Virus record (IMG/VR): IMGVR_UViG_3300032268_001078
Coordinates: 96,001-160,000 of that record
Origin: a virus
Strand: one strand, 5' to 3'
DNA length: 64,000 nucleotides
A program made the position numbers and the translations under genes. A model generated the notes under the pieces. That model did no database searches, had not been told where the DNA came from, and saw only the letters and a program-made list of their open reading frames with translations. Below are positions 7,032 through 45,715 of the stretch, piece by piece (position 1 is the stretch's first letter; each line of letters begins with the position of its first letter).

Positions 7032-7046
7032 ATAACTTTATTTGCT

Positions 7047-7054
7047 ATAAATAT
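7047..7054 (-). promoter_or_regulatory. Class I motif ATATTTAT
   Basis: 15 nt upstream of the HNH start, just after a terminator. Confidence 0.65.
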
Positions 7055-13007: not shown

Positions 13008-13015
13008 GGTTTAAT

Positions 13016-13023
13016 ATAAATAT
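13016..13023 (-). promoter_or_regulatory. Class I motif ATATTTAT
   Basis: 8 nt upstream of start 13007. Confidence 0.65.
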
Positions 13024-13026
13024 AAA

Positions 13027-16000: not shown

Positions 16001-17397
16001 ATACCGTAAAAATCACTTTCACTGCCACTTAAAAATACTAAAGTTCCTACAGGGGCATTTGGTTGTGGGGTATCAGTTGGATATTCTTTAATAAAAATAA
16101 AAGTTGAACCTTCTGTAATTGAAGTAACATTACTCTCTGTAAATGTCCACTCTCTATTAAGCGTGGATGGAACTAATGAATAAGGATTTAAATTTATAAT
16201 TGCATTCTTAGACCCAGTTTGAGTAATTGTACTATTATTAATGTTAAAATTTTGTGTATTTGAATTTAAAGGACCATTTAAATCTAAACTACCTGATATA
16301 CGCGCTGAACCTGTGAAAGGAAATGATGGTGTTGTATTTAATGCAAAAGAAGCAGTTCCAAACAATGATCCAGTAATTGAATTTGCTATTAAACTTCCGC
16401 TTATATTTGTAGTACCATTTAAATTAATAATACCTAAACCTGAACCAGTATTATAAAATCTAATACTTGGAGGGGTATCATCTAAACTTGAAGTTGTAAT
16501 ATAAGCTCTTACTGACGCGAAATAATAAAAAGTTTCACCTATTTCTGTTGAACCTGTAGTTGTAACTATACCTAAAAATTTATAATTAGGAATACCATAT
16601 CCATCTGTTTGACTACCACTAATAAATACTTTTGTTCCTATTTGTGGAGGAAGTTGTCCATAAGATTCGTCTTGTAAAACATTAAAAATTGAACCTGATG
16701 TAATTGAAGTAACAGTAAAAAGTATAGGTGCTTGATTCCAATCTCTATTAATTGTAGATACTTGATTAGAAACAGTATTTAAATTTATAATTGATGGGTT
16801 ATAAATAGCATTTTGTATAAAATTATTATTATTAATATTAAAACTTTGTGTATTTGAGTTTAAAGGTCCGTTTAAATCTAAACTACCTGATATACCCGCT
16901 GATCCTGTAAAAGGAAAAGATGATCCACCACCACCTCCTCCTGAACCTGTATTAACAGTGATTGGGAATGTTGAACCATCACCCTTGGTGAAAGTTATTG
17001 TGTTTAGATTTACAGAAGCAGTTGTTAATAATGAACCAGTATTTGTACTTCCACCTCCTCCATTTAAAGCAAAGCTTGCTGTTAGAGCGTAACTTGAAGA
17101 CAAGGCTTGAGTTGAATATGATGCTGTACCAAATAAACGTCCAGTAAATGATCCAGTAAATGAACCTGTAGTGTAAGAAGAAGTAAAATTGTTAAAACTA
17201 CTTGTAGTCACAAATGATCCTGTGTTTACAATAGTTCCTCCTCCTCCACCTAAAGCAGAAGACGCTGTAATATACAATTGTCCAGAAGCTGTATCAATTA
17301 AAACAACATTTGATTGAGAGTTAGATGTTAGTCCTCTAAAAAATATAGGTCCTGATATTGTTAATGATCCTGATACTATGGGTTGAAAAATTCTCAT
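13027..17397 (-). CDS. Large modular fibre/adhesin-like virion protein, 1456 aa
   Basis: Triplicated ~160-aa module, hexapeptide beta-repeat, about 16 NxAIG YadA-type repeats near the C-terminus. Confidence 0.75.
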   Translation of the reverse strand: MRIFQPIVSGSLTISGPIFFRGLTSNSQSNVVLIDTASGQLYITASSALGGGGGTIVNTGSFVTTSSFNNFTSSYTTGSFTGSFTGRLFGTASYSTQALSSSYALTASFALNGGGGSTNTGSLLTTASVNLNTITFTKGDGSTFPITVNTGSGGGGGGSSFPFTGSAGISGSLDLNGPLNSNTQSFNINNNNFIQNAIYNPSIINLNTVSNQVSTINRDWNQAPILFTVTSITSGSIFNVLQDESYGQLPPQIGTKVFISGSQTDGYGIPNYKFLGIVTTTGSTEIGETFYYFASVRAYITTSSLDDTPPSIRFYNTGSGLGIINLNGTTNISGSLIANSITGSLFGTASFALNTTPSFPFTGSARISGSLDLNGPLNSNTQNFNINNSTITQTGSKNAIINLNPYSLVPSTLNREWTFTESNVTSITEGSTFIFIKEYPTDTPQPNAPVGTLVFLSGSESDFYGIPEYKFLGIVSQSYNEIIGGEDPNSKYYAVCIAYTTTSWPDLYPNTIRFYNGVPSPGSGSINLNGDTTVNGDTTIGGNTTINGSTTVKGNTIISGSTTITGSTSIRGNTIISGSTTITGSTTVSGSTSIRGNTTISGSLTLTGSLIATSFTGSLLGTSSRAVTASYALNGGVTTIIGGADILITSGSGGNVTVSSTGGGGAFPFTGSARISGSIDLDGPLNSDIQNFNITNDTVIQNSVFNSSSINLTSYSNKPSIINQQWDGLYDIGSGSVSYSITSGSSFYVDAFAGSISFPQIGTKVFYSSGSQTQTDGYNIPNYKFLGIVTGTTTYYTGGDPDYLVNRVIATAYITTSSLDNDTSVRYYNTGSTINNGTINLNSTTNVNGVLNVSSSIISPLYLASGSEFRGPLTITNTASINNLLIIGNNNLDKKYLQFGKLVNNYAVDANFINLSRNAQSGVDVFNRLNTRLQFNQGFPYTYYDGEDPVSAIGSNTLSYLDFQTDTTYLNIIDLNFVAQGYSVDSNNNFTALPIKGFNTNYNGTTYFNVIGAVSASAYYGNGSNLTGIFTNPFTGNFIVNGTSSINGILTSSIANLDTINSTNGINGVFISEGSGSNTTNLVLGDPRALSTLNLAASAISGRNNIAIGSGSLVSATSTFRNIALGNNIMPLVTSNGSNNNIGIGFDVFTASTTSITNNIAIGNSASYATTTGDNNIAIGTEALFSNTSFGNNIAIGLRAGKLATGAGSSIFIGVDAGSNVTSGDNNIAIGFEALKFLTTVNNNIAIGYQAMVSGSGAQDSIAIGSSALRNITTGDDNLAIGANALSSITTAAGNLAIGTDSMISTSATATSNNTSIGFQSLQNITGSNNVVLGYRTMQGVRFGSNNTVIGYNNISGSGVSGSNNTIIGANVVLPDGVYNNRIIIADGQGTQRISVSGSITSISGSLSITGSGAIFTLQPQDPLPTVNILAGSFAVSSSIPPKPYFWDGSVWNALY
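15590..15815 (-). repeat. In-frame 18-bp tandem repeat encoding a G-[SND]-T-T-[IV]-x hexapeptide
   Basis: GDTTVNGDTTIGGNTTINGSTTVKGNTIISGSTTITGSTSIRGNTIISGSTTITGSTTVSGSTSIRGNTTISGS. Confidence 0.9.
16997..17037. repeat. Exact 41-bp direct repeat, copy 1 (copy 2 at 20219..20259)
   Basis: attgtgtttagatttacagaagcagttgttaataatgaacc is identical in two different fibre genes. Confidence 0.9.
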
Positions 17398-17398
17398 T

Positions 17399-17470
17399 TT
17401 ATTTTACTGGTTGTGTTATATGACCTACTTGAATAATAGAATTATTTATTTTTATTAATGTTAATACCAT
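17399..17470 (-). CDS. Candidate 23-aa small ORF (MVLTLIKINNSIIQVGHITQPVK)
   Basis: ATG 8 nt after an ATATTTAT motif; its stop lies 1 nt before the ATG of the 1456-aa gene. Confidence 0.35.
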   Translation of the reverse strand: MVLTLIKINNSIIQVGHITQPVK

Positions 17471-17478
17471 AATATATT

Positions 17479-17486
17479 ATAAATAT
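17479..17486 (-). promoter_or_regulatory. Class I motif ATATTTAT
   Basis: 8 nt upstream of the small ORF at 17470 and 81 nt upstream of start 17397. Confidence 0.6.
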
Positions 17487-19555
17487 TATATATTTGAATA
17501 ACCGTATTCAAAAGGAATTAAATAAACATCAAAAGAACCAGTTACTGTTATTCTGTTACTTATTCCGTATTGAGTAGGAGTAGTTACTTTTGCATACATT
17601 AAATTAGTATCATCATACCAAGTTGTATTAAATTTACCTCCAATTGTAGTAGTTAATGTATATAATAATTGATTGTTTATATTATCATATATATCTACGA
17701 TATAGCCTGAGCCATCTCCGGTATAGTTGTAAATTGAGCCTGATAGAGGATAGGTGTATCTACTTAAATTCATAAATCGTTCAAACCCAAGTCTTGTTCC
17801 AAGAGTTAATATTCTAAATTGTCTATTAATCCATGGATTTAAATAACTAGAAGAAGGTGCTTCAGAGTATCTAGCAAAATAATCTTTATATTCTATTATA
17901 CTATAACTAGAACCTAACTCAACATCTGTTATAACAACATCATTATAAATATTTTTATATCCTACTCCGTTTTCATTAGGTAATATTTTAGCGTCGTAAG
18001 TATAACCTTGTGGATTTTGCACTAAATTATAAAATATATTTCCATTATCTATAATATAAGTACTACTGCTAACTGTCAAAGGAATAGAACTTGTATATAA
18101 TAAAGAAGTATTATTAACAGCACTAGTAAATGTTCTATCAGAAAAAATATGAAATTTAGTACTATTATCTATACCTGTAGAAGGCACATCAGAATGATAA
18201 TTTATTATATATAATCCAGTAACATTACTAGCATTTTGAGTTGTACTAGTTGTAAATATACTTGAAGATATTTCATTTAAACCTCTTACTAGTGTAAATC
18301 CAGAACCATATTCAGCTCCACTATCTATTCTATGTTGTACATTTTTCATACCACATATAGCGCTACCAAAATCATTGTATGTTTTAAAAGAAGATTGCCC
18401 TCCAGTTTTTATCCTTAAAGTAGTAATAGTAGCAGTATCAAACCAATTTAGACGTAAAGCGCTTTGTTTTAACTCTAAATTATTATCTAATATTCTAAAT
18501 GTTTTATCAACAAATGAAGATGAAGGTTCTACTGGATATCCTAATGGTGAATTTATATATTCAGGTATTAAAATAGTATTTAATATTTTTGATGTTGTAG
18601 TTTTATCATATTCATAAGTCACATACAACGAAGGACTAATATGTCTAAAAGCAGTAGCTGTATTAGCTGCTAAATTTAAAGAATGAGTTACTGTTGTATC
18701 TGGCAAGGAAGAAGTGGGAATACTATACATAAAACGATCAAATCTATCAGATTGTAAAGCTCTTTGTATTAAACCAAATTGATACACTGAATTATAGGTT
18801 GAGGAAGTAATTGAGGAAGTTAAAAAAATGTTTATTCCAGCACCTGTGGTTTCATTTCCTTCTATTTCTATAAAATAATCTCTTATTACCACATTAGATT
18901 CTGGTAAAAAACCACCAACACCTGTTAATTGTGGTATATAATCAATAAATGATGAAGTATTTATCCCGGTAATACCTAAAGAAGATGTTGGGCTGTTAAA
19001 TGGAATAATAGCAGTTTTTATGTAAGTGTTGTTATTATTTTCATGCTCATAAGTAGCGAATAATTTCGCTGTGTAATTATAAGCAGCACTACTAGTATTT
19101 GAAGCTGAAATTGAAGAAAGTGTTCTCCAATAAATATTTAAATCAACATCGATTGAAGAAGATTGAGCAGGTATATTAGAGTTGAAATAATTAGTAAAAT
19201 CAAAAGGTCCAAGTACCATAGACCAGTTTTCTCCACTATTTCCTATAGTGTTAGCATCACCGGCGATAGTAGATAAATAATTATAAGAAGATGTTATTGA
19301 AGATCCACTTATTTGTAATGTTATATTATATCCATTTATACTTTGAACTACAGATAGCCCGTCCATCCATCCTATTTCTACTCCAACTGATTTAAAATTT
19401 CTAGATGATGTTTCAGGGAAATATAAAGTTTTTGTTCCTAAAGAAGCAGTGATTGTGTAAAATTGGTTTGCTCCAGACCCTGTTAAAGCAGCGACAGCTG
19501 AGCTAGCTGTTAAAGTAGGCCAAGCATAATATACAGTTTTCGCAACGGTTGCCAT
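17486..19555 (-). CDS. Virion structural protein, 689 aa, beta-rich
   Basis: Long S/T/Y-rich ORF translationally coupled to the upstream fibre gene. Confidence 0.6.
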   Translation of the reverse strand: MATVAKTVYYAWPTLTASSAVAALTGSGANQFYTITASLGTKTLYFPETSSRNFKSVGVEIGWMDGLSVVQSINGYNITLQISGSSITSSYNYLSTIAGDANTIGNSGENWSMVLGPFDFTNYFNSNIPAQSSSIDVDLNIYWRTLSSISASNTSSAAYNYTAKLFATYEHENNNNTYIKTAIIPFNSPTSSLGITGINTSSFIDYIPQLTGVGGFLPESNVVIRDYFIEIEGNETTGAGINIFLTSSITSSTYNSVYQFGLIQRALQSDRFDRFMYSIPTSSLPDTTVTHSLNLAANTATAFRHISPSLYVTYEYDKTTTSKILNTILIPEYINSPLGYPVEPSSSFVDKTFRILDNNLELKQSALRLNWFDTATITTLRIKTGGQSSFKTYNDFGSAICGMKNVQHRIDSGAEYGSGFTLVRGLNEISSSIFTTSTTQNASNVTGLYIINYHSDVPSTGIDNSTKFHIFSDRTFTSAVNNTSLLYTSSIPLTVSSSTYIIDNGNIFYNLVQNPQGYTYDAKILPNENGVGYKNIYNDVVITDVELGSSYSIIEYKDYFARYSEAPSSSYLNPWINRQFRILTLGTRLGFERFMNLSRYTYPLSGSIYNYTGDGSGYIVDIYDNINNQLLYTLTTTIGGKFNTTWYDDTNLMYAKVTTPTQYGISNRITVTGSFDVYLIPFEYGYSNI

Positions 19556-22353
19556 TATTTATATGTTTCTGTTATTAATTGTAAACTTAAATTTGAAGCA
19601 CTTGTATTTGTTTCAACATTTATTAAAAATACATCATTAGGACTAAATGAAGTTGTCCAATTTGATACATCATATGAACTAGTAAACTGGTTATTTATCA
19701 ATTGCGGTTTGTTTGTTGTTATAATAGTATCTGAGGATGTAGGTAGAGTGTTATTTCTTTTCCAAATATTTAATGTTGTTGTAGAACCTGTATTTGATGT
19801 TAAAATAAATCCTTTTATAGATCCTGAATACGGTGAATAAAATATACTGTTGGTTTTACTTCCTACTGTTATTGGAGTTGGAATACTACCTAAATTAAAT
19901 GTAATTGTTCTTGATTCTGTAATAGAAGTAGAAGCAGTTATAGAATAGGAACTTGTTCCTAATAAACTACCTGTAAATCCTAAAGTTGATATTATAGACC
20001 CAGTCACAGTCAAACTTCCTGTTATTATAGCTGATCCTGTAAAAGGAAATGCTCCACCACCACCAGTGTAACTTACAGTTACATCTCCTACTCCACTTCC
20101 AGGTGAAACAGATATACTTGAACCTGCTATAATTTTTGTTACAGCACCACCGCCTCCTCCTCCTGATCCTGTATTAATAGTGATTGGAAATGTTGAACCG
20201 TCACCTTTAGTGAAAGTAATTGTGTTTAGATTTACAGAAGCAGTTGTTAATAATGAACCGGTGTCTGTACTCCCACCGCCTCCTCCGTTCATAGCATAAC
20301 TAGCAGTTAAAGCATAACTTGAACTTAAGGATTGGTTTGAATAAGACGAAGTTCCTAATAAAGATCCAGTAAATCCATTAGTTGATTGTATACTACCTGT
20401 TACTACTAAATTACCTGCTATATTCTGTGATCCTGTATTTGTTAATACTTCATGCCATCCTGGTTGTGATCCAGAATTGTAGTAATAAAGTCCTTCTGTA
20501 GCAGAAGATGTAATGTAGGTTATAAGACCTTGAGCCGGACTACTTATGTTTGATGTTAGGTTTGTTCTAGGTGGTAAGAAACCTTTTGTTGTACTATTTG
20601 CCTGTAAAACTGCCGAAGGTACTTCAGATTGTCCAGATCCAAAATTACCCCAGTTTGTTATTGTTATACTATTTGTATTGATACCTTGAGCACCTGCTCC
20701 AATGATGGTATAACCATCATCTCTAACTCTAAATACTTGTGTACCACTACTATTTTGAACTAAGAGAGCATTGGTGACAGATGTTGTTCCTGATCCTTTA
20801 ACTAATAAACTATTAGTATTAGAACCTGTGATTGTTAAAGTACCTGCTATGTTCTGTGGCCCGGTATCATTTAATACTTTAGTCCATGCCTGATATGATC
20901 CTGAGTTATAATAGTAAAGTCCTTCTGTATCAGAAGATGTAATGTATGTTATTAAACCTTGAGCAGGACTGCTTATACTTGAGGTTAGGTTTGTTCTAGG
21001 TGGTAAGAATCCTTTTGTTGTAGACCGAACTTCAAATATTGCAGAGGTATTAGTAGCTCCAGCAGTTGCAGCTACGTTAATCCCTCCATTAACAGCAAAA
21101 AGTGTCATATCAAATTGCGAACTTAATTGCATACGACCACCATTACTACCATTTAGTGTTCCTCCACCATTACCATTTACGGTAAATGATGAACCTAAAT
21201 TAATTCCTCCATCGTCAGCAACTTTAAAATACTGAGTTCCTGCACTATTCTGAACTAGAAATGAAGATGACAATGAACTTGTAGTTTGGCCTACTATATG
21301 TAATGAAGCAGAAGGTATTATTGTTCCTACTCCTATAAGTCTATTATCAAGTATTGCTAGTGAAGCAGATGCGTTAGCATTTTCTATTCTTAAAGTTGTG
21401 GTAGCAGTAGTTGTACCTGCTCCTTTTACAGTTAATCGAGCAGGTGGGGTTTCAGTCGTCACGTAGGTATTTCCTACAGCCATGTAACTAGGAGCTGAGA
21501 CATGTCCGTTAAGATTTATATACAGTCCATTATTGTTGTTTGCCCTAATTCTAAAATTGTTATAATTTGTAGTTAAAAGAGCATCTGAACCTATATCTTT
21601 AAATTGAAATTCTTTACCATTTATCGCTATAACTGATTGTGATGAACCTGTCACTGTTAAAGATCCAGTGACAGTCAAACTTCCTGTTATTACTGCGCTT
21701 CCTGTATATGGAAAAGTTGAACCACCCCCACCACCTCCTGATCCTGTATTTACAGTAATTGGAAATGTAGTTCCATCTCCTTTAGTAAAAGTAATAGTAT
21801 TTAAATTAACAGATGCTGTTACTAGTAAAGATCCTGTGTCTGTATTTCCACCTCCACCTCCGCCATTTAAAGCATAACTAGCTGTTAAAGCATAAGAAGA
21901 AGTTCCTAATAATGAGCCTGTGAATCCCTGTGTTGCTGTTATTGATCCTGTAACTACTAAAGAACCAGATATTATAGCAGATCCTGTATATGGAAAAGAT
22001 GAATTTTCTTCATTTAATATTCCTCCTACTGAAGCTATAGCAAAACCACTTTCTAAAGTTGGAAAAGTTATTGTTGCACTTGAAGTACTATTTAATAATA
22101 AGTTTTGAGGAATAATTTGATTATAATTTGAATCAAAAACTGTTATAATTGGTGTTCTTGTTCCTAAATTATGATTAAATACCCAAGTATCTGAATTACT
22201 AAATGAAGATGTTATTACAGATCCAGATCCAGATCCAGAAACATATATATTTGTAGTTCCTCCGTTTAAAGCATATGAAGCAGTTCCAAATAAAGATCCT
22301 GTATATGAACCTGTTTGATTAAAGTCTATTTGATGTAATTTGATTAATGCCAT
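19555..22353 (-). CDS. Fibre-like virion protein, 932 aa
   Basis: FVFNHNLG-type motif (WVFNHNLGTR), duplicated KGFLPPR...GLITY modules, poly-Gly linkers. Confidence 0.7.
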   Translation of the reverse strand: MALIKLHQIDFNQTGSYTGSLFGTASYALNGGTTNIYVSGSGSGSVITSSFSNSDTWVFNHNLGTRTPIITVFDSNYNQIIPQNLLLNSTSSATITFPTLESGFAIASVGGILNEENSSFPYTGSAIISGSLVVTGSITATQGFTGSLLGTSSYALTASYALNGGGGGGNTDTGSLLVTASVNLNTITFTKGDGTTFPITVNTGSGGGGGGSTFPYTGSAVITGSLTVTGSLTVTGSSQSVIAINGKEFQFKDIGSDALLTTNYNNFRIRANNNNGLYINLNGHVSAPSYMAVGNTYVTTETPPARLTVKGAGTTTATTTLRIENANASASLAILDNRLIGVGTIIPSASLHIVGQTTSSLSSSFLVQNSAGTQYFKVADDGGINLGSSFTVNGNGGGTLNGSNGGRMQLSSQFDMTLFAVNGGINVAATAGATNTSAIFEVRSTTKGFLPPRTNLTSSISSPAQGLITYITSSDTEGLYYYNSGSYQAWTKVLNDTGPQNIAGTLTITGSNTNSLLVKGSGTTSVTNALLVQNSSGTQVFRVRDDGYTIIGAGAQGINTNSITITNWGNFGSGQSEVPSAVLQANSTTKGFLPPRTNLTSNISSPAQGLITYITSSATEGLYYYNSGSQPGWHEVLTNTGSQNIAGNLVVTGSIQSTNGFTGSLLGTSSYSNQSLSSSYALTASYAMNGGGGGSTDTGSLLTTASVNLNTITFTKGDGSTFPITINTGSGGGGGGAVTKIIAGSSISVSPGSGVGDVTVSYTGGGGAFPFTGSAIITGSLTVTGSIISTLGFTGSLLGTSSYSITASTSITESRTITFNLGSIPTPITVGSKTNSIFYSPYSGSIKGFILTSNTGSTTTLNIWKRNNTLPTSSDTIITTNKPQLINNQFTSSYDVSNWTTSFSPNDVFLINVETNTSASNLSLQLITETYK
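20219..20259. repeat. Exact 41-bp direct repeat, copy 2
   Basis: Identical to 16997..17037; a diverged third copy lies near 21721..21873. Confidence 0.9.
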
Positions 22354-26936: not shown

Positions 26937-26941
26937 ATGTT

Positions 26942-26973
26942 ATAAATATAAAAAAAGGCTTGGCAAAAGCCAA
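26942..26973 (-). promoter_or_regulatory. Overlapping class I (26942-26949) and class II (26945-26973) motifs inside the capsid terminator
   Basis: TTGG-CTTTTGCCAAGCCT-TTTTTTATATTTAT, ending 5 nt before the HNH ATG. Confidence 0.6.
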
Positions 26974-38789: not shown

Positions 38790-38818
38790 AATATAATGTT
38801 TTTTACTTGTATTTCCAA
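38790..38818 (-). promoter_or_regulatory. Class II promoter (TTGG-N14-AACATTATATT)
   Basis: Same spacing; TTGG lies in the last codons of the endonuclease gene. Confidence 0.65.
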
Positions 38819-39480
38819 ATATAACCATATGCTGTTTTTTGTCTTCCTGCAGCACAATCGGCTATACTATTTCCTGATTTTTGTAAATGTCTACCTGCTT
38901 CTAATGCTGATTGATATTCTTTTATTATGTTTCCTTCTAAATCTAACTGTAATATTGTTTTAGCATGAGGATTGTGAGTTCTATTTGGAGCAAATATCTT
39001 CATTGATTTACTTATCTTATCTGACCATAATATTTCTCTACCTTTATGTGCTTTACTTATATTAGGTTGTTTTTTATCAGTTCTTGTTTTACTTATTTTT
39101 TCTTTTGTTTCATCACTCATAGGACCTCTAGGTTTTGATAGTTTTTTACCAAAACCTTCAGGTTTAGGTTTTGATAGTTTTTTTCTTCTTTCTGGATTAG
39201 ATTTCATTTCTTCCGTCCAAAACTCAGGACCACTTCCGCCTTTTTTTCTAATATTTACTACATCAAAACCCCATGCTATAAACTGATTTATCCAAAATGT
39301 TTCTAATGGTTCCCAATCCTCATACTTCAATGAGTCAACTTGATCTATTTCATTATAAATGATATTTTTACCAAATGTTCTTTTATGAGAGTTTTTTCTC
39401 CAGTTTCCTTTAGATTTACCAATATAAACTTTATATGGGGTATTATCTATATTTTCTACTAAATAAATATATGTCATCAA
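38803..39480 (-). CDS. Homing endonuclease-like protein (GIY-YIG-like N-terminus, NUMOD3 repeats, NUMOD1 C-terminus)
   Basis: YIYLVE...VYIGKS; SDETKEKISK repeats; KTILQLDLEGNIIKEYQSALEA...KTAYGYIWKY. Confidence 0.85.
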   Translation of the reverse strand: MMTYIYLVENIDNTPYKVYIGKSKGNWRKNSHKRTFGKNIIYNEIDQVDSLKYEDWEPLETFWINQFIAWGFDVVNIRKKGGSGPEFWTEEMKSNPERRKKLSKPKPEGFGKKLSKPRGPMSDETKEKISKTRTDKKQPNISKAHKGREILWSDKISKSMKIFAPNRTHNPHAKTILQLDLEGNIIKEYQSALEAGRHLQKSGNSIADCAAGRQKTAYGYIWKYK

Positions 39481-39507: not shown

Positions 39508-40869
39508 CTACACAAAAGATATCAAATCTCCATCATACCATGATTTTACTTCATTATCTTTTTCTAAAATATTTATTGTATTTTGTGTTCTAATAATACT
39601 TTCAGCTACATATATTCCATGTGCACCAGAAACAGTAATACCACGAGCAGACAATGCATCACCTACAAAATATATATTAGGATATTGTACTAAAGATAGA
39701 TTTTTATAATCAACTTTTACTTCAGGCGACAAATATTTTACTTCTGGGATATAAACACCCCAATCATTACTAAATTCAAAAATATCTTTCATATCTAAAA
39801 TAAAACTTTCAACATAATCCCAATATTCACCCATTACTTGTCTTACTTTTTGTAAATCTTGAATTTGATAAGCACTGATATCTTTACCTTCAGATGTTGT
39901 TCCTGGTTTTCTTGATGGAGAATAATATAATCCTTTACCATCTTTTTGTAATTGATTTACTACATTTCTTGACCATTCAAATGGATTTTCAATTCCTTTG
40001 ATTTCCATAATAATACCAAAATTAGTTAAGTTGTTTCTAAATTCTTCACCTTTTTTAGCATGACCATTGTAAGTAATATCACCATAAGTTTCTTCAACTG
40101 CTACATAAGCAGCATTATTATTAGTACAAAAACTTCTAATACTTATTTTATCATCTGATTGATATAGTTTAAAATCATAACTAACATCAATTAGTTTTTG
40201 AAAGTATTTTTGTGGTGCTTCAAATCTAACTCCTATTTGTACTGATTTTGGTTCATCAGGTAATTCATAATCCTTTGCTAAGTGTTGAGCAAAATCAATT
40301 CCTGATTTACCTACTGCGAATATTAATTCATCATATGAAATAGGTTCTAATGAATTATCTAATTCAACATATTCATATTTAAAATCAATAAATGTTACTT
40401 TTGTTTCCCATTCAAAATTCACACCTTTATCTACTAAATAACTGTACCAATTTTTAGCAATTTCATGAAGAAAATTTGAACCAATATGCCATACAGGTGA
40501 CATTCTTAATGTAAATTTAGGTTTAATAAAATCAGGTTCTTCTTGTGGATTACTTAAAAATATTTCTTCTGGTTTTGGATGGAATCGTCTAAAGTTTTCA
40601 ACTACTTCATCCATTAAAGACAAAGCTTTAGTTTCACCACAGTATTTAGATAACTGACCTCCTTGACTTGTTGATACTACTAATTTTCCATCAGACCATC
40701 CACCAGCACCTAACATACCTTCCATTACTTCTTCAGGTAAACGATTATGGGGGTCTTTACCCATATCAATAATAGTAATTAAACTACCATCATAACCATT
40801 ATCTACTAATTTAGTAGCAGCGTTAATTCCAGCAACACCTGCTCCTACGATAACTATTTTTTTACTCAT
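39508..40869 (-). CDS. FAD-dependent oxidoreductase (COG2509-like)
   Basis: IVIVGAGVAG Rossmann motif; GAGGWSDGKL; IGVRFE; RSFCTN; FVGDALSARGI. Confidence 0.88.
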   Translation of the reverse strand: MSKKIVIVGAGVAGINAATKLVDNGYDGSLITIIDMGKDPHNRLPEEVMEGMLGAGGWSDGKLVVSTSQGGQLSKYCGETKALSLMDEVVENFRRFHPKPEEIFLSNPQEEPDFIKPKFTLRMSPVWHIGSNFLHEIAKNWYSYLVDKGVNFEWETKVTFIDFKYEYVELDNSLEPISYDELIFAVGKSGIDFAQHLAKDYELPDEPKSVQIGVRFEAPQKYFQKLIDVSYDFKLYQSDDKISIRSFCTNNNAAYVAVEETYGDITYNGHAKKGEEFRNNLTNFGIIMEIKGIENPFEWSRNVVNQLQKDGKGLYYSPSRKPGTTSEGKDISAYQIQDLQKVRQVMGEYWDYVESFILDMKDIFEFSNDWGVYIPEVKYLSPEVKVDYKNLSLVQYPNIYFVGDALSARGITVSGAHGIYVAESIIRTQNTINILEKDNEVKSWYDGDLISFV

Positions 40870-42235: not shown

Positions 42236-42247
42236 AAATTATTTTAT

Positions 42248-42279
42248 ATAAATATAATAAAATTTTTCTAAAATCCCAA
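42248..42279 (-). promoter_or_regulatory. Overlapping class II (42251-42279) and class I (42248-42255) motifs
   Basis: TTGG-N14-TTTATTATATTTAT upstream of the phosphoesterase. Confidence 0.75.
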
Positions 42280-43302
42280 TTTTTCCTGGATTTTGTTTAG
42301 TACTTCTTCAGTACTCACTTCATTTTTTATAGGTTTATATTTAATTTCATGTCTTACTTCATTGCCATAAATTCTAGTTATATTGTCTTGAAACTCATGG
42401 TTTGGGGGTGTAAAATCACTAATCAAAAATACGTGACAGTCACAACTATGTGCTAACCAACTCAAACCACTTGATACACCTATAAAATAAGAAGCTGAAG
42501 TTAGTTCGTTTACTCTGTCTTCTATTGGATAGTCGCCTGTTTTATCGATTATGTTTTTTAAGTTGGTTTTTTCGCGCGAAATCACCACAACTTCATAACC
42601 TTTTTCGACGAGGGTATCAATAATTTTTTGCCAATCACCGTGCCACATTTTCATATCTAAACTAGCAAATTCACTTATGCAAATTTTGTTAGATTGTTTT
42701 TCTAAATTTGGTTTTTTCACATTAGCTTTTAAATGAACTCTGTCTAAACCTAAAATATCAGCTGCTATAAATGGAAGTGGTTCAGTAATATAAGAAGAAG
42801 GTTGATAAATTGGTTCATTTTTATCATGAGTTCCAACATAGTATTGAGCATACACATTATCTATTCTTGTATTAGGTTGAACAAACATAATATCTGGATA
42901 AGTTTCTATAAATAAATTATTCCAAAAAGTTGAGCAAATTATTTTAGCTCCACTTGCTTGTCTAAGTGCTTCAATATATGGAATCCATGCTAAGTTATCA
43001 CCTAAAGCATAAGCATCTATTTTTATAAATACTACTTTATCTTTACAATTATAAACATCAGTATGAATTATTTCATTATTATTTTTAATAATTTCTACTT
43101 TCCAAAGTACTAAATACTGTACAGGACCACAAAACGGAACACCAGGAGTTATAGGCAATTCCATAAATCGATTTAATAAAGTATTAGTAAGTCTAACAGA
43201 ATAAGTGTGTTGTAATTCTTCTTCAGAATCAATTGTTAAAAGTACTTCAGGTGAACCTTGTTGAATAGGTAAATGTGTAATGTATTTTATAGAATATTTC
43301 AC
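42268..43302 (-). CDS. Aah/TibC-family (autotransporter O-heptosyltransferase-like, GT9-related) glycosyltransferase
   Basis: AYALGDNLAWIPY, STFWNNLF, WQKIIDTL..KGYEVVVIS, FIGVSSGLSWLA...LISDFT...EF; GTG start. Confidence 0.82.
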   Translation of the reverse strand: MKYSIKYITHLPIQQGSPEVLLTIDSEEELQHTYSVRLTNTLLNRFMELPITPGVPFCGPVQYLVLWKVEIIKNNNEIIHTDVYNCKDKVVFIKIDAYALGDNLAWIPYIEALRQASGAKIICSTFWNNLFIETYPDIMFVQPNTRIDNVYAQYYVGTHDKNEPIYQPSSYITEPLPFIAADILGLDRVHLKANVKKPNLEKQSNKICISEFASLDMKMWHGDWQKIIDTLVEKGYEVVVISREKTNLKNIIDKTGDYPIEDRVNELTSASYFIGVSSGLSWLAHSCDCHVFLISDFTPPNHEFQDNITRIYGNEVRHEIKYKPIKNEVSTEEVLNKIQEKLGF

Positions 43303-43308
43303 CCTATT

Positions 43309-43336
43309 AATATAATAAAACCTTTAATAAAAACAA
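43309..43336 (-). promoter_or_regulatory. Class II promoter variant (TTG-N14-TTTATTATATT)
   Basis: Upstream of the glycosyltransferase; TTG is one nt closer than in the other copies. Confidence 0.6.
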
Positions 43337-43834
43337 TTATGAAGGAATTCTTATGTAAGATCCTGATATTCTATAACCACTTCCAGTAAATGAAGCTGCT
43401 ATATTATAATAGGCTCCACCTAAACTTACAGACATAGTAACTCCGGGAGCTCCACTTAAACGTTTTTGATAAATGTCTGTTATAAATTCATTTCCTCCAC
43501 CATTATATGTTCCTATAAAATACGAAGAACCACCTACAATAGATGAATTAAGTATTGATCCTGATGTAGCTGTCCAACTTAATTGATAATGAACAGGGGC
43601 ATTAGTTGATGTATCAGTTGCAGGAATTTGTAAGAATATTGTATTTGAAGGGTTACTACCAAAACTATAATTAAAAGTTGTTGGTAAGGATGAGGTTAAG
43701 TTAGTATTATTAACAATTAATGAACCAGTTATATTAACATTTCCATCTATTAAAGTACTACCTGTTATTTGTAGAGCGTATCCATTACTACTCCCACTGT
43801 CTTGTATTTCTATTCCAAAATCAAATGTTGACAT
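43337..43834 (-). CDS. Ser/Gly-rich virion accessory protein, 165 aa
   Basis: ITGSTLIDGNVNITGSL motif shared with the fibre proteins. Confidence 0.55.
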   Translation of the reverse strand: MSTFDFGIEIQDSGSSNGYALQITGSTLIDGNVNITGSLIVNNTNLTSSLPTTFNYSFGSNPSNTIFLQIPATDTSTNAPVHYQLSWTATSGSILNSSIVGGSSYFIGTYNGGGNEFITDIYQKRLSGAPGVTMSVSLGGAYYNIAASFTGSGYRISGSYIRIPS

Positions 43835-43835
43835 G

Positions 43836-45692
43836 TTATTTTCTTATCATTAAAGTTGTACCGTTTGCATAAACTCCTCCCACAGGAACACCATTAGTTG
43901 CAGCGTGCGCACTACTACTATAATTCATATTAACCACTTGAGGCAGTACTATTGTACCATCATTTTGACTACCTCCATTTACTTTAGTTATTACTACTTC
44001 AAATAAATTAGTTCTAGGGCCTGATATATTTCCAGCTCCTACAATAAATGGTCTATAACCAACTGTATTATATGTGGTTGTTTGTTCTATATTTCCATGT
44101 CCTACTACAAATTGAGCAGTAGCTGAGGCTATAGTTTGATAACCACTAGTATGTGAATACTCTGATTTTGTTGTTGTTTTGTAACCTTCAGTGTGTGATG
44201 CTTGTCCTATAGTTGTTGTTAACCAGCCTTCAGCGTGTGAATATTGTCCAGAAGCGGTAACATATATACCTTCAGCATGTGAATAAAGTCCTGATGCTAA
44301 TGTATAATATCCTTCAGCGTGAGCTCCTTCAGCTTTAGTTGTAGTAAATCCACCTTCAGTATGTGAAAATTGACCTATAGCTTTAGTTGCTCCTCCTTCA
44401 GCGTGACTATCTGGACTTACAGCTGAAGATGAATTTCCTTCAGCATGAGAATAATCTCCTATAGTTATGGTGTAAAATCCTTCACTATGAGACGATATAC
44501 CTAAAGCTGTAGTACTTAATCCTTCAGCATGTGAATAATTACCCTTAGCTGTTGAAGATCCTCCTTCAGCGTGACTGTAAAGTCCAGAAGCTGATACTGT
44601 ATTTCCATTAGCAAATGAATAACTACCAACTGCTATAGAAGCTAAACCAAATGCAACTGATGATAATGATGAACTATTATTACTAGCTCCTATATTAACT
44701 GAAGATGTAGTTGAATTACCAACAGATGTTACAGATTGTAAATTTTGATTAGTACTGTTTGCTAAATTTAAAGTTCCAGCTGTTTGATTATAACCATTAA
44801 AGAATGTAACAGTATTACTTGATATAGAAGCAGATGCAAAATTTCCACTTGCTGTACCTCGTAAAGATCCTGTTGCTCCTGCTAAAAATACTGCTGAACC
44901 ACTAAAATAACTTGTATAAGTAGATGTATTACTATTATAACCACGTGTTCCACCAAATATAGCGTAAGGTACTGTATCAAAGGTTGTTTTACGAATAGTA
45001 AGAAGTGATGTTGCTGGTATTGTACTTGAACTTAAAACAAAATGCATAGTTGGAGCATCTTGTCCGCTAGGCTCAAATGCTACTATATTACCATTTCCAA
45101 AAGCATAATTTAATGCTAAAAATTGTTGGTTAGTTCCTACTCCAGGTTCCTCTCCTCTAAATACTTTTATTCCACCTAAAAAACCATCAAGACTTTCACT
45201 TGCTACTATTTGTAAATTTCCATCAATATTAGTTGTAGAACCACTAAATCTTACATCATTATAAAAAGTAGTAGGCAAATAAAAACTAGCTGTTTGAGGA
45301 TCAGATCCATTACTACTAGTTACTGAAAAACTACCTGTAAATTGAAAAAATCCACCTCTTCCAACAGATTCACTTAGAATAGTAAATGAATTAGTAACAT
45401 AATTTGAATAAGTAGCAAATAATGAATAATTAGTTACATTAGAAGCACTTAAAGCATAACTTGCTGTTTTAGCATTCATAGCATATGAAGCTGTAAATTT
45501 ACCTAAGTCTTTAATTTCAATTCCACCACCATTAGATCTTGATAAAATTAAACTATTACTTTGAAAATAATGTGTTGTATAACTAACACTTTGTGATTGT
45601 AAAGCAGCGTACTGTATATTATTGTCACCTTCTGTAAAAGTAAGAGGTGATCCTTTGACGTTTCTTAATACTAATGAACCTAAATCTGGCAT
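43836..45692 (-). CDS. Fibre/adhesin-like protein with YadA-type SHAEG repeats
   Basis: N-terminal LRNVKGSPLTFTEGDNN; about 12 repeats of the 14-aa xSHAEGxxTxAxG unit. Confidence 0.75.
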   Translation of the reverse strand: MPDLGSLVLRNVKGSPLTFTEGDNNIQYAALQSQSVSYTTHYFQSNSLILSRSNGGGIEIKDLGKFTASYAMNAKTASYALSASNVTNYSLFATYSNYVTNSFTILSESVGRGGFFQFTGSFSVTSSNGSDPQTASFYLPTTFYNDVRFSGSTTNIDGNLQIVASESLDGFLGGIKVFRGEEPGVGTNQQFLALNYAFGNGNIVAFEPSGQDAPTMHFVLSSSTIPATSLLTIRKTTFDTVPYAIFGGTRGYNSNTSTYTSYFSGSAVFLAGATGSLRGTASGNFASASISSNTVTFFNGYNQTAGTLNLANSTNQNLQSVTSVGNSTTSSVNIGASNNSSSLSSVAFGLASIAVGSYSFANGNTVSASGLYSHAEGGSSTAKGNYSHAEGLSTTALGISSHSEGFYTITIGDYSHAEGNSSSAVSPDSHAEGGATKAIGQFSHTEGGFTTTKAEGAHAEGYYTLASGLYSHAEGIYVTASGQYSHAEGWLTTTIGQASHTEGYKTTTKSEYSHTSGYQTIASATAQFVVGHGNIEQTTTYNTVGYRPFIVGAGNISGPRTNLFEVVITKVNGGSQNDGTIVLPQVVNMNYSSSAHAATNGVPVGGVYANGTTLMIRK

Positions 45693-45707
45693 AGTTTGTT
45701 ATTTGTT

Positions 45708-45715
45708 ATAAATAT
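45708..45715 (-). promoter_or_regulatory. Class I motif ATATTTAT
   Basis: 15 nt upstream of the SHAEG-repeat gene. Confidence 0.65.

What the first reader, a model, noticed from the sequence alone, without database searches (positions are those of the whole stretch)
42268..45692. Candidate virion glycosylation system: Aah/TibC-like transferase beside an autotransporter-like fibre
Seen: a glycosyltransferase with Aah/TibC-family motifs directly downstream of a YadA-type SHAEG-repeat gene and a Ser/Gly-rich small gene. The window also encodes over 4,000 residues of Ser/Thr-rich beta-repeat fibre proteins. Established: E. coli Aah and TibC O-heptosylate serines in beta-helical repeats of the adhesins AIDA-I and TibA, encoded next to them. 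Inference: the phage glycosylates its own fibres for folding, protease resistance, receptor binding or shielding. If the host is a Bacteroidota lacking ADP-heptose, the donor may be a different nucleotide sugar.
Basis: partly seen in the sequence, partly recalled or inferred. Interest (0 to 1): 0.8.

Follow-up and report, generated by a model that had tools for sequence, protein, structure and literature searches.

The report
Phage TibC-like enzyme beside YadA-like fibre
A 180-kb uncultured phage, probably of Flavobacterium-type bacteria, carries a stripped-down relative of the E. coli adhesin-glycosylating enzyme TibC next to a fibre gene built like a bacterial YadA adhesin head, and this pairing recurs across related phages, so the phage probably sugar-coats its own fibre, though no sugar has been seen.

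Summary
Three tightly packed minus-strand genes encode:
- a 618-aa fibre with 11 exact 14-residue SHAEG repeats;
- a 165-aa Ser/Gly-rich protein of unknown role;
- a 344-aa glycosyltransferase.

**The enzyme** is a true TibC/Aah relative. It matches TIGR04414 at E 1.5e-47, TibC in the PDB at E 2.5e-24, and a pLDDT 95.6 model gives TM 0.83 to TibC. The catalytic Asp, the phosphate- and heptose-binding residues and the adenine-contacting Arg are all kept. It scores below the curated family cut-off and lacks two family hallmarks, the Cys4 iron finger and the beta-hairpin thumb.

**The fibre** repeats are a real YadA-like head (profile E 6.9e-23 and Z 18.8 to the BpaC head), but the protein has no autotransporter anchor.

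**The new result** is that this short Cys-free form is one clade, found only on viral contigs. Of 30 non-redundant members, 13 have a SHAEG fibre within three genes and 8 more have one elsewhere on the record. Cys-bearing phage forms never do (0/23); they sit beside collagen-like Gly-Ser/Thr fibres instead.

The phage has no ADP-heptose genes, so the host must supply the donor.

This scan has already flagged TibC-like phage enzymes on much other DNA. The distinct part here is the minimal enzyme and its YadA-head partner. Fibre glycosylation remains an inference.

The parts
43836..45692 (-). 618-aa fibre gene. It has an N-terminal anchor-like motif (LTFTEGDNNIQY), a poorly predicted middle part, a YadA-like head repeat array and a C-terminal domain.
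   Evidence: ORF; phrog_25468 at E 2.2e-37. Homologues are annotated tail spike or tail fiber in Flavobacterium phage immuto and Verrucomicrobia phage P8625. Many metagenomic homologues carry PF05658, PF13884 or PF11962.
44115..44660 (-). YadA-like head: about 13 turns of a 14-residue repeat (residues 345-526). Eleven carry the SH[AST]EG anchor at exact 14-residue spacing. Consensus: S-H-A-E-G-x-x-T-T/I-A-S/I-G-x-Y.
   Evidence: AF2 pLDDT is 77-93 over residues 370-510. VIA-align gives BpaC head Z 18.8 at 31% identity, UspA1 Z 17.5, CbpF Z 17.3 and BoaA head Z 13.7. The sequence profile matches the BpaC head at E 6.9e-23.
43337..43834 (-). 165-aa Ser/Gly/Thr-rich protein of unknown role, translationally coupled to the fibre gene. 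Possibly a distal fibre part or an assembly factor.
   Evidence: ORF; composition. No hit in Pfam, NCBIfam or PHROGs, no homologue in 80 related loci, and only uninformative atlas neighbours.
42268..43302 (-). 344-aa minimal TibC/Aah-like (BAHT-like) glycosyltransferase: beta-barrel N-domain plus GT-B catalytic domain, with no iron finger and no thumb.
   Evidence: Residue map: D102=D110, S214=T226, K218=K230, R263=R286, S277=P300/AAH S294, W282=W305. Clade census.
45707..45714 (-). TATTTATA motif (as read on the coding strand) ending 14 nt before the fibre start codon. It may be a promoter element shared with other genes of this phage. There is none before the GT gene.
   Evidence: The motif lies 3-14 nt upstream of 11 genes of the genome, including the 965-aa fibre gene but also the exonuclease gene. 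It is inconclusive for timing.

Best explanation
The 344-aa protein is an active, inverting GT-B glycosyltransferase of the TibC/Aah lineage. It O-glycosylates Ser/Thr residues on the YadA-like beta-roll head of the phage's own SHAEG fibre. That means the adjacent 618-aa protein and probably also the 996-aa paralogue 68 kb away.

The reaction would happen in the infected cell's cytoplasm, before or during fibre assembly. The donor would be a host-made ADP-activated sugar, most likely ADP-heptose.

The enzyme has lost the iron finger and thumb that build the TibC dodecamer and grip the right-handed TibA helix. It therefore probably works as a monomer or small oligomer and recognises a different acceptor fold.

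Shown here: homology, intact catalytic and donor residues, loss of the two modules, the YadA-head nature of the fibre, and clade-specific enzyme-fibre co-occurrence. Inferred: that the fibre is the acceptor, the identity of the sugar, the oligomeric state, and the benefit (shielding, stability or receptor binding).
For: (1) Enzyme identity. TIGR04414 at E 1.5e-47; TibC in the PDB at E 2.5e-24. The AF2 model has pLDDT 95.6 and its best Foldseek hits are all TibC, at E about 1e-25 and TMq 0.82-0.84. LPS heptosyltransferases WaaC/WaaF reach only TM about 0.5.

(2) Functional residues, named in PMC4358343.
- The equivalents of Asp-110, Lys-230 and Trp-305 are invariant in all 98 non-redundant relatives.
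- Thr-226 is Ser in 30/30 of the short clade.
- The adenine-N1-contacting Arg-286 is Arg in 29/30 of the short clade, but in 0/23 Cys-bearing phage forms.

(3) Linkage.
- The short Cys-free forms are one clade (SH-aLRT 98), all on viral contigs.
- 13/30 have a SHAEG fibre within 3 genes, against 0/23 Cys-bearing viral forms (Fisher p 1.9e-4).
- 8 more have one elsewhere on the record, and 7 of 9 records of at least 119 kb do. In contrast, 0/14 records with Cys-forms have one.
- Gene order varies between loci: the fibre lies upstream or downstream, with 0-2 genes between.

(4) Not merely phage ancestry. G022 has a capsid protein 54% identical to this phage's, yet carries a Cys-form enzyme, a collagen-like neighbour and no SHAEG gene on its 77.6-kb fragment (about 44% complete). 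G004 and G005 (57% identical capsid protein) carry the short form and SHAEG fibres.

(5) Acceptor plausibility. The repeat domain is a beta-roll with two conserved hydroxyl positions per 14-residue turn (S1 92%, T8 89% of 315 units). The family's known acceptors are Ser residues in beta-helical repeats of adhesins encoded next door (PMC4358343).
Against: - No glycan has been observed on any of these fibres. All the evidence is comparative.
- The short clade has a single origin, so its association with SHAEG fibres is one evolutionary event that has persisted, not many independent ones.
- In half of the clade, including the jumbo-phage lineage, the enzyme gene is not next to a fibre gene. There it sits among small ORFs, an LRR protein and an RNaseH-like gene.
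- SHAEG fibres vastly outnumber the enzyme, and phage immuto has them without it.
- In TibC, iron-finger mutants were inactive (PMC4358343), so activity without that module is an assumption.
- The BAHT homologue BimC, which sits beside the trimeric autotransporter BimA, was reported to lack transferase activity (PMC6439308).
- The phage encodes no gmhA or rfaE, and the host is unknown.
Confidence: 0.55

Rival explanations
1. The enzyme glycosylates other phage proteins instead of, or besides, the SHAEG fibre. Candidates are the four Ser/Thr-rich fibre or baseplate proteins at 10110-22353, the 165-aa neighbour, or capsid and tail proteins as in mycobacteriophages.
For: The window holds 4042 aa of other Ser/Thr-rich structural proteins. 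In loci L003 and L004 the adjacent large Ser/Thr/Gly-rich gene is not a SHAEG array, although SHAEG genes lie elsewhere on those records. In half of the clade the enzyme is not adjacent to a SHAEG gene. Virion glycosylation of capsid and tail tube is known in mycobacteriophages (Freeman et al. 2023, as cited in PMC12619734).
Against: The only neighbour family that recurs across the clade is the fibre family (17 proteins in 15 of 30 loci). SHAEG genes track the enzyme clade at genome level, and Cys-form phages lack them.
Confidence: 0.15
2. The enzyme acts on the host: it modifies a host surface protein, such as a host YadA-type adhesin, or LPS during infection. This could block superinfection or free progeny from debris.
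For: Phage glycosyltransferases that alter host surface antigens are well known (general knowledge; Markine-Goriaynoff et al. 2004, as cited in PMC12619734). The gene lies outside the main structural module, next to an exonuclease and other non-structural genes.
Against: The fold is that of TibC, with its beta-barrel, not that of the LPS heptosyltransferases (TM 0.83 against about 0.5). The full-length short form was found only on viral contigs and never in the cellular genomes scanned. The enzyme co-occurs with phage SHAEG genes, and nothing ties it to a host target.
Confidence: 0.12
3. The protein is a non-catalytic fibre partner, such as an assembly or targeting factor. BimC was reported to be this for the trimeric autotransporter BimA.
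For: BimC is a BAHT homologue encoded beside a YadA-type trimeric autotransporter. It binds that protein and was reported to lack transferase activity (PMC6439308). In TibC, loss of the iron finger abolished activity.
Against: The catalytic base and all four donor-binding residues are invariant or nearly so across a clade that has diverged to 38% identity. That is hard to explain without catalysis.
Confidence: 0.08
4. The adjacency is incidental, and the enzyme modifies DNA or a small molecule.
For: The genome has a 7-deazaguanine pathway and a GT2 elsewhere (earlier scan note, not checked here). Phage GT-B enzymes that glycosylate DNA exist (Pyle et al. 2024, as cited in PMC12619734).
Against: No similarity to DNA glycosyltransferases appeared in the fold search. 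The clade-specific co-occurrence with one fibre type is not expected under this reading.
Confidence: 0.03

Closest known systems
TibC-TibA and Aah-AIDA-I of E. coli: bacterial autotransporter heptosyltransferases (BAHT; TIGR04414; PDB 4RAP, 4RB4; PMC4358343)
   Same: - Homologous beta-barrel plus GT-B catalytic domain (TM 0.83).
- Catalytic Asp, phosphate-binding Ser/Thr and Lys, heptose-binding Trp and adenine-contacting Arg are all kept.
- Ser at the Pro-300/Ser-294 stereoselectivity site, as in AAH.
- Encoded next to a Ser/Thr-rich beta-solenoid repeat protein.
- A soluble enzyme that would meet its acceptor in the cytoplasm.
   Different: - Encoded by a phage.
- 344 aa instead of 406.
- No Cys4 iron finger: 41 residues after the E303 equivalent against a median of 73, with no Cys.
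- The thumb segment is 9-10 residues shorter.
- The score is below the curated cut-off.
- The acceptor candidate is a left-handed YadA-type beta-roll of a fibre with no membrane anchor, not a right-handed AIDA-type beta-helix.
- Activity, donor and oligomeric state are untested.
Cys-bearing, often multi-domain TibC-like enzymes of large phages that sit beside proline-free collagen-like Gly-Ser/Thr fibres
   Same: Phage-encoded TibC homologues next to Ser/Thr-rich repeat fibres, sometimes in phages of the same lineage (G022, capsid protein 54% identical).
   Different: - Those keep 3-4 Cys in the tail, and many are fused to other enzyme domains (560-925 aa).
- They lack the Arg-286 equivalent (0/23).
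- Their neighbours are collagen-like (12/23), never SHAEG (0/23).
- The present form is a separate clade with the opposite pattern.
BimC-BimA of Burkholderia (PMC6439308)
   Same: A BAHT homologue encoded beside a protein with a YadA-type trimeric head.
   Different: BimC binds iron and was reported to lack transferase activity, acting in the polar targeting of BimA. The phage enzyme has no iron site and keeps all the catalytic residues.
Trimeric autotransporter adhesin heads (YadA, BpaC, UspA1, BoaA, CbpF)
   Same: The fibre's 14-residue repeat array is homologous in sequence and fold (E 6.9e-23; Z 13.7-18.8; 23-31% identity).
   Different: No signal peptide is visible and no anchor domain was found. 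The N-terminus resembles those of phage fibres, and homologues carry phage-fibre C-terminal chaperone domains (PF13884, PF11962).
Mycobacteriophage virion glycosylation (Freeman et al. 2023, known here only through citations)
   Same: Phage-encoded glycosyltransferases that decorate the phage's own virion proteins.
   Different: Different enzyme families, different targets (C-termini of capsid and tail tube), and experimentally shown. Here the enzyme is TibC-like, the target is a fibre repeat, and nothing has been shown experimentally.

Membership tests
BAHT / TIGR04414 (autotransporter strand-loop-strand O-heptosyltransferase) | Score at or above the curated equivalog cut-off (200 bits) | tested here: not met
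   162.4 bits at E 1.5e-47, matching only model positions 57-316 of 374.
BAHT / TIGR04414 | GT-B catalytic domain homologous to TibC, with catalytic Asp-110 and donor-binding Thr-226, Lys-230, Arg-286 and Trp-305 | tested here: met
   D102, S214, K218, R263 and W282 align with them. They are invariant or 29/30 in the clade.
BAHT / TIGR04414 | N-terminal flattened beta-barrel packed on the catalytic domain | tested here: met
   The AF2 model has eight strands in residues 2-95. The Foldseek alignment to TibC spans about 381 columns at TMq 0.83. This rests on a model, not on a solved structure.
BAHT / TIGR04414 | Cys4 iron finger (TibC Cys-339, 342, 358, 370) | tested here: not met
   There is no Cys in the 41 residues after the E303 equivalent. 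All 30 clade members have 0-1 Cys there, against 3-5 (up to 7 in a few) in most other forms.
BAHT / TIGR04414 | Beta-hairpin thumb (tip Phe-265/Val-266) mediating ring contacts | tested here: not met
   A 9-residue deletion at that site. The segment is 11 residues in all 30 clade members, against a median of 20 in cellular forms.
BAHT / TIGR04414 | Dodecameric ring; heptosyl transfer from ADP-heptose to Ser of the acceptor | not testable with these tools
   Needs SEC-MALS or cryo-EM, metal analysis and an enzyme assay.
BAHT / TIGR04414 | Encoded next to its beta-solenoid repeat acceptor | tested here: met
   The fibre gene lies two genes upstream here. A SHAEG fibre lies within 3 genes in 13/30 clade members. 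The acceptor fold differs from that of AIDA-I/TibA.
YadA-like head of trimeric autotransporter adhesins (PF05658) | Array of 14-residue repeats homologous to solved YadA-like heads | tested here: met
   Exact 14-residue spacing. Profile E 6.9e-23 to the BpaC head, 7.6e-6 to CbpF and 2.9e-4 to BoaA. Z 18.8, 17.5, 17.3 and 13.7.
YadA-like head of trimeric autotransporter adhesins (PF05658) | Pfam gathering score for YadA_head | tested here: not met
   No hit for the 618-aa protein. The 996-aa paralogue scores 20.7 bits against a cut-off of 25. Many homologues carry a precomputed PF05658 hit.
Trimeric autotransporter adhesin (whole protein) | C-terminal YadA-type membrane anchor and secretion signal | tested here: not met
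   No anchor domain in the Pfam or NCBIfam scans. The N-terminus MPDLGSLVLRNVKGSPLTF shows no signal-peptide-like hydrophobic stretch (read from the sequence; no predictor was run).
Phage tail fibre / spike | Presence in the virion | not testable with these tools
   Support is indirect only: homologues annotated as tail spike or fibre, PF13884 and PF11962 in homologues, and phrog_25468 of unknown function.

The most novel reading that the evidence does not exclude
The short form is an iron-free minimal BAHT that does not form the dodecamer. It has been re-tooled for a different acceptor architecture, the left-handed YadA-type beta-roll. Related phages exchange matched enzyme-plus-fibre cassettes (short form with SHAEG head, Cys form with collagen-like tract) to change a glycan coat on their fibres. 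The retained adenine-contacting Arg would make this clade an ADP-sugar user, while the collagen-associated phage clade has moved to another nucleotide. If so, this would be a compact natural enzyme-acceptor pair for O-heptosylating repeat proteins, and a hidden layer of phage host-range or shielding variation.
Probability: 0.3. Interest if true: 0.75.

Novelty: new variant of a known kind. Interest (0 to 1): 0.6.

Why it matters
Protein O-heptosylation by TibC/Aah is known only from bacterial adhesins. There it depends on an iron-containing dodecamer.

A phage-only clade keeps the chemistry but discards the iron finger and the thumb, and it is tied to a different acceptor fold. That would show which parts of the machine are needed for catalysis and which for handling one substrate.

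It would also add fibre glycosylation to the ways in which aquatic phages vary their surface. I found no paper describing phage-encoded BAHT enzymes.

The pair is small (344 aa plus a fragment of about 200 aa) and can be tested directly in E. coli, which makes ADP-heptose.

Interest is tempered in two ways. This scan has already flagged the general theme many times, and no experimental fact exists yet.

Tried and rejected
Contexts therefore came from the search for related loci and the genome search.
- **A single-sequence scan of viral contigs** found nothing. An alignment was needed.
- **ADP-heptose genes in the phage.** No match for gmhA or rfaE domains I and II. GmhB and HldD were not searched.
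- **Host sugar supply.**
  - Only a phylum-level sample of Bacteroidota could be taken.
  - rfaE domain II scored over the cut-off in 127/201 genomes. GmhA-like genes reached E<1e-30 in 42/61, but only 4 passed the curated cut-off.
  - This does not identify the host or prove a complete pathway.
- **The small 165-aa protein.** No family, no homologue in related loci, and uninformative atlas neighbours.
- **Whole-fibre fold.** Only the repeat region is confident. Residues 1-340 and 532-618 are below pLDDT 50 and say nothing.
- **Repeat-position Ser/Thr comparison** between enzyme-linked fibres, immuto and metagenomic fibres. There are differences at positions 9 and 11, but only 9 immuto units and a background of unknown enzyme status. 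I treat this as uninformative.
- **Promoter and terminator scans.** Sigma-70-like sites are at chance level. The TATTTATA motif also precedes the non-structural exonuclease gene, so it gives no timing.
- **Neighbours of the enzyme in the jumbo lineage** (an LRR protein, an RNaseH-like protein and small ORFs), and the 453-aa FAD-binding protein near it in four loci, show no link to sugars.
- **DNA modification and LPS modification** were considered and judged unlikely on fold and distribution.


Full report
**Setting**

The window is bases 96001-160000 of a 179,715-bp IMG/VR virus record that CheckV rates complete. Nearly all genes are on the minus strand.

It is a myovirus: it has a tail sheath (phrog_23, E 8e-78) and a major head protein (phrog_138, E 3e-67).

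The few DNA or fibre matches to cultured phages are to Flavobacterium phage immuto, Sphingomonas phage PAU and Verrucomicrobia phage P8625.

Three minus-strand genes are packed at 42268-45692 with gaps of 1 and 34 nt. There is no terminator-like site between them.

- *Fibre (618 aa).* Its SH[AST]EG anchors lie at residues 373 to 513, every spacing exactly 14.
- *Middle gene (165 aa).* It is rich in Ser, Gly and Thr and matches nothing.
- *Third gene (344 aa).* It matches TIGR04414 hepto_Aah_TibC at E 1.5e-47 and TibC crystal chains at E 2.5e-24.
- *Other fibres.* The 4042 aa of further Ser/Thr-rich structural proteins at 10110-22353 are also there.

**The enzyme**

An AlphaFold2 model built on 33 homologues has mean pLDDT 95.6. 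Its best Foldseek matches are all TibC chains, at E about 1e-25 and TM 0.82-0.84 over the whole length. The LPS heptosyltransferases WaaC and WaaF come next at a TM of only about 0.5. The fold is therefore that of the protein-modifying branch, beta-barrel included.

I used the residues defined in the TibC structure paper (PMC4358343) and the alignment.

| TibC residue | Role | Equivalent here |
|---|---|---|
| Asp-110 | catalytic base | D102 |
| Thr-226 | beta-phosphate binding | S214 |
| Lys-230 | beta-phosphate binding | K218 |
| Arg-286 | contacts adenine N1 | R263 |
| Trp-305 | heptose binding | W282 |
| Pro-300 (Ser-294 in AAH) | stereoselectivity | S277 |

Two hallmarks are missing.
- The thumb hairpin carries a 9-residue deletion.
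- The 41 residues after the last conserved motif hold no Cys, so there is no Cys4 iron finger.

The protein also scores 162 bits against a curated cut-off of 200. It is a relative of the family, not a standard member.

**A separate, phage-only clade**

The large protein database holds 343 relatives at E<1e-5, most of them 336-355 aa long. A profile search of 1.84 billion cluster representatives finds 1654 relatives. Only about a dozen clusters are full-length short forms. The rest are longer and mostly multi-domain.

An alignment-based scan found 182 viral contigs that encode a relative, and I fetched 80 loci. In 185,579 species genomes, 72 loci matched, but only over residues of about 60-316 and at no more than 43% identity.

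After removing sequences more than 90% identical, 98 domains remained.

| Feature | Short Cys-free forms | Cys-bearing viral forms | Cellular forms |
|---|---|---|---|
| Number of domains | 30 (339-355 aa) | 23 | 45 |
| Source | viral contigs only | viral contigs | cellular genomes |
| Thumb segment | 11 residues in all | median 17 | median 20 |
| Residues after the E303 equivalent | median 41 | median 62 | median 73 |

The 30 short forms make one clade (SH-aLRT 98).

**Enzyme clade tracks fibre type**

- *SHAEG fibre within three genes.* Found in 13 of 30 short-clade members and in 0 of 23 Cys-bearing viral forms (Fisher p 1.9e-4).
- *Collagen-like neighbour.* A proline-free Gly-Ser/Thr neighbour with no SHAEG repeats occurs in 0 of 30 against 12 of 23 (p 5e-6).
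- *Whole records.* I searched 19 short-form records that lack an adjacent SHAEG gene. Nine have SHAEG genes elsewhere, including 7 of the 9 records of at least 119 kb. None of 14 Cys-form records has one, among them a complete 271-kb genome.
- *This phage.* It has a second SHAEG protein of 996 aa beside its DNA polymerase, 68 kb from the enzyme.
- *Recurrent neighbours.* The only neighbour family that recurs across the clade is the fibre family, in 15 of 30 loci.

The clade has one origin, so this is one association that has persisted through deep divergence (down to 38% identity) and through changes of gene order. It is not many independent events.

The confound of shared phage ancestry is only partly broken.
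- G004 and G005 have a capsid protein 57% identical to this phage's, and carry the short form with SHAEG fibres.
- G022 has a capsid protein 54% identical, yet carries a Cys-form enzyme, a collagen-like neighbour and no SHAEG gene in its 77.6-kb fragment, which is about 44% complete.
- A jumbo lineage (capsid protein 40-46% identical over the C-terminal half, up to 362 kb) also has the short form plus SHAEG genes.

**The fibre**

The full-length model is poor (pLDDT 49.7) except for residues of about 370-510, which reach 77-93 and show strands with a 14-residue period.

- *Fold.* That region aligns with trimeric autotransporter heads: BpaC at Z 18.8 and 31% identity, UspA1 at Z 17.5, CbpF at Z 17.3 and BoaA at Z 13.7. 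Hyperglycosylated TibA itself reaches Z 12.1, as a generic beta-solenoid match.
- *Sequence.* A profile of the fibre matches the BpaC head at E 6.9e-23.
- *Not an autotransporter.* The repeats are a true YadA-like head, but no anchor domain was found.
- *Signs of a phage fibre.* Homologues carry phage-fibre C-terminal domains (PF13884, PF11962) and are annotated as tail spike or fibre.
- *Repeat variation.* Close homologues differ by whole 14-residue units.
- *Candidate acceptor sites.* Over 315 units from enzyme-linked fibres the consensus is S-H-A-E-G-x-x-T-T/I-A-S/I-G-x-Y, with hydroxyl residues at position 1 (92%) and position 8 (89%). Which positions are exposed is unknown.

**Donor**

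The phage has no gmhA or rfaE, so the host must supply the donor.

In TibC, Arg-286 explains the preference for an ADP-sugar. Its equivalent is Arg in 29 of 30 short-clade enzymes, in 30 of 45 cellular ones, and in 0 of 23 Cys-bearing phage forms. I checked this in the alignment itself. This points to an ADP-sugar for this clade and perhaps another nucleotide for the collagen-associated clade.

In a phylum-wide sample of Bacteroidota, an HldE-domain-II-like gene passed the curated cut-off in 127 of 201 genomes. A GmhA-like gene reached E<1e-30 in 42 of 61. ADP-heptose is thus not excluded for such hosts, but the host itself and a complete pathway are unverified.

**Caveats and rivals**

- Nothing shows that a sugar is attached.
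- SHAEG fibres are very common (>7000 proteins at E<1e-8), and the cultured relative immuto has them without the enzyme. Any modification is therefore optional.
- Iron-finger mutants of TibC were inactive.
- BimC, the BAHT homologue beside the YadA-type adhesin BimA, was reported to lack activity. A non-catalytic role is therefore conceivable. The invariance of every catalytic and donor residue across the clade argues against it.
- Other virion proteins or a host target remain possible acceptors.

**Comparison and verdict**

I found no paper on phage-encoded BAHT enzymes or on heptosylated phage fibres.

This scan has flagged TibC-like phage enzymes 322 times in at least 252 genomes, mostly the fused Cys-bearing forms beside collagen-like fibres.

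What this case adds:
- a minimal, Cys-free, thumb-less clade found only in phages;
- an ADP-type donor pocket in that clade;
- a specific link between that clade and YadA-head fibres.

I rate it a new variant of a known kind, of moderate to high interest, and directly testable by co-expression in E. coli.

Noticed in passing
Outside the window: G000 68743-71733, minus strand (L082:6744-9734): A second SHAEG-repeat protein of 996 aa with 28 anchors. It looks like a tandem duplication of repeat array plus C-terminal module. It lies directly beside the family-B DNA polymerase gene, not in the structural module.
   Followed up: partly
Loci L045-L081 (viral Cys-bearing TibC-like forms): All 23 non-redundant Cys-bearing phage forms lack the equivalent of TibC Arg-286, the adenine N1 contact. 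They have Val, Leu or Ala there and a one-residue deletion in the TGD-P---R motif. This suggests a different nucleotide-sugar donor from that of the short clade and most cellular forms.
   Followed up: partly
G022 (record of L058) compared with G000, G004 and G005: Phages whose capsid proteins are 54-57% identical carry different enzyme-fibre pairs: a Cys form with a collagen-like fibre, or the short form with a SHAEG fibre. This hints at exchange of matched cassettes.
   Followed up: partly
window 45707-45714, 42247-42254, 26941-26948, 13015-13022, 7046-7053 and six more sites in the genome: TATTTATA (coding strand) ends 3-14 nt before the start codons of 11 genes, always in intergenic DNA. 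Across the genome there are 40 copies on the coding strand against 20 on the other. It may be a promoter element giving nearly leaderless transcripts.
   Followed up: partly
window 39508-40869 (-); L002 +2, L005 -1, L007 -1: A FAD-binding protein of about 430-465 aa, for which only the N-terminal Rossmann motif is recognisable, stays within three genes of the short TibC-like gene in four loci of the nearest subclade. Its function is unknown.
   Followed up: partly
window 38803-39480 (-): A GIY-YIG / group I intron endonuclease-like ORF (TIGR01453, E 6e-12) lies between the NadR-like ATPase gene and the FAD-protein gene. A GIY-YIG ORF also sits next to the enzyme in L002.
   Followed up: no
Alignment A2 (fibre and close homologues): Homologues 63-88% identical to the fibre differ by insertions or deletions of whole 14-residue units, while the N-terminal 340 residues are nearly invariant. 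This points to rapid length variation of the head.
   Followed up: no
L022-L029, L034, L037, L039, L040 (jumbo lineage): Here the short enzyme gene sits in conserved synteny with paralogous 103-118-aa ORFs, a 466-526-aa leucine-rich-repeat protein and an RNaseH-like protein, far from the SHAEG genes of the same records.
   Followed up: partly
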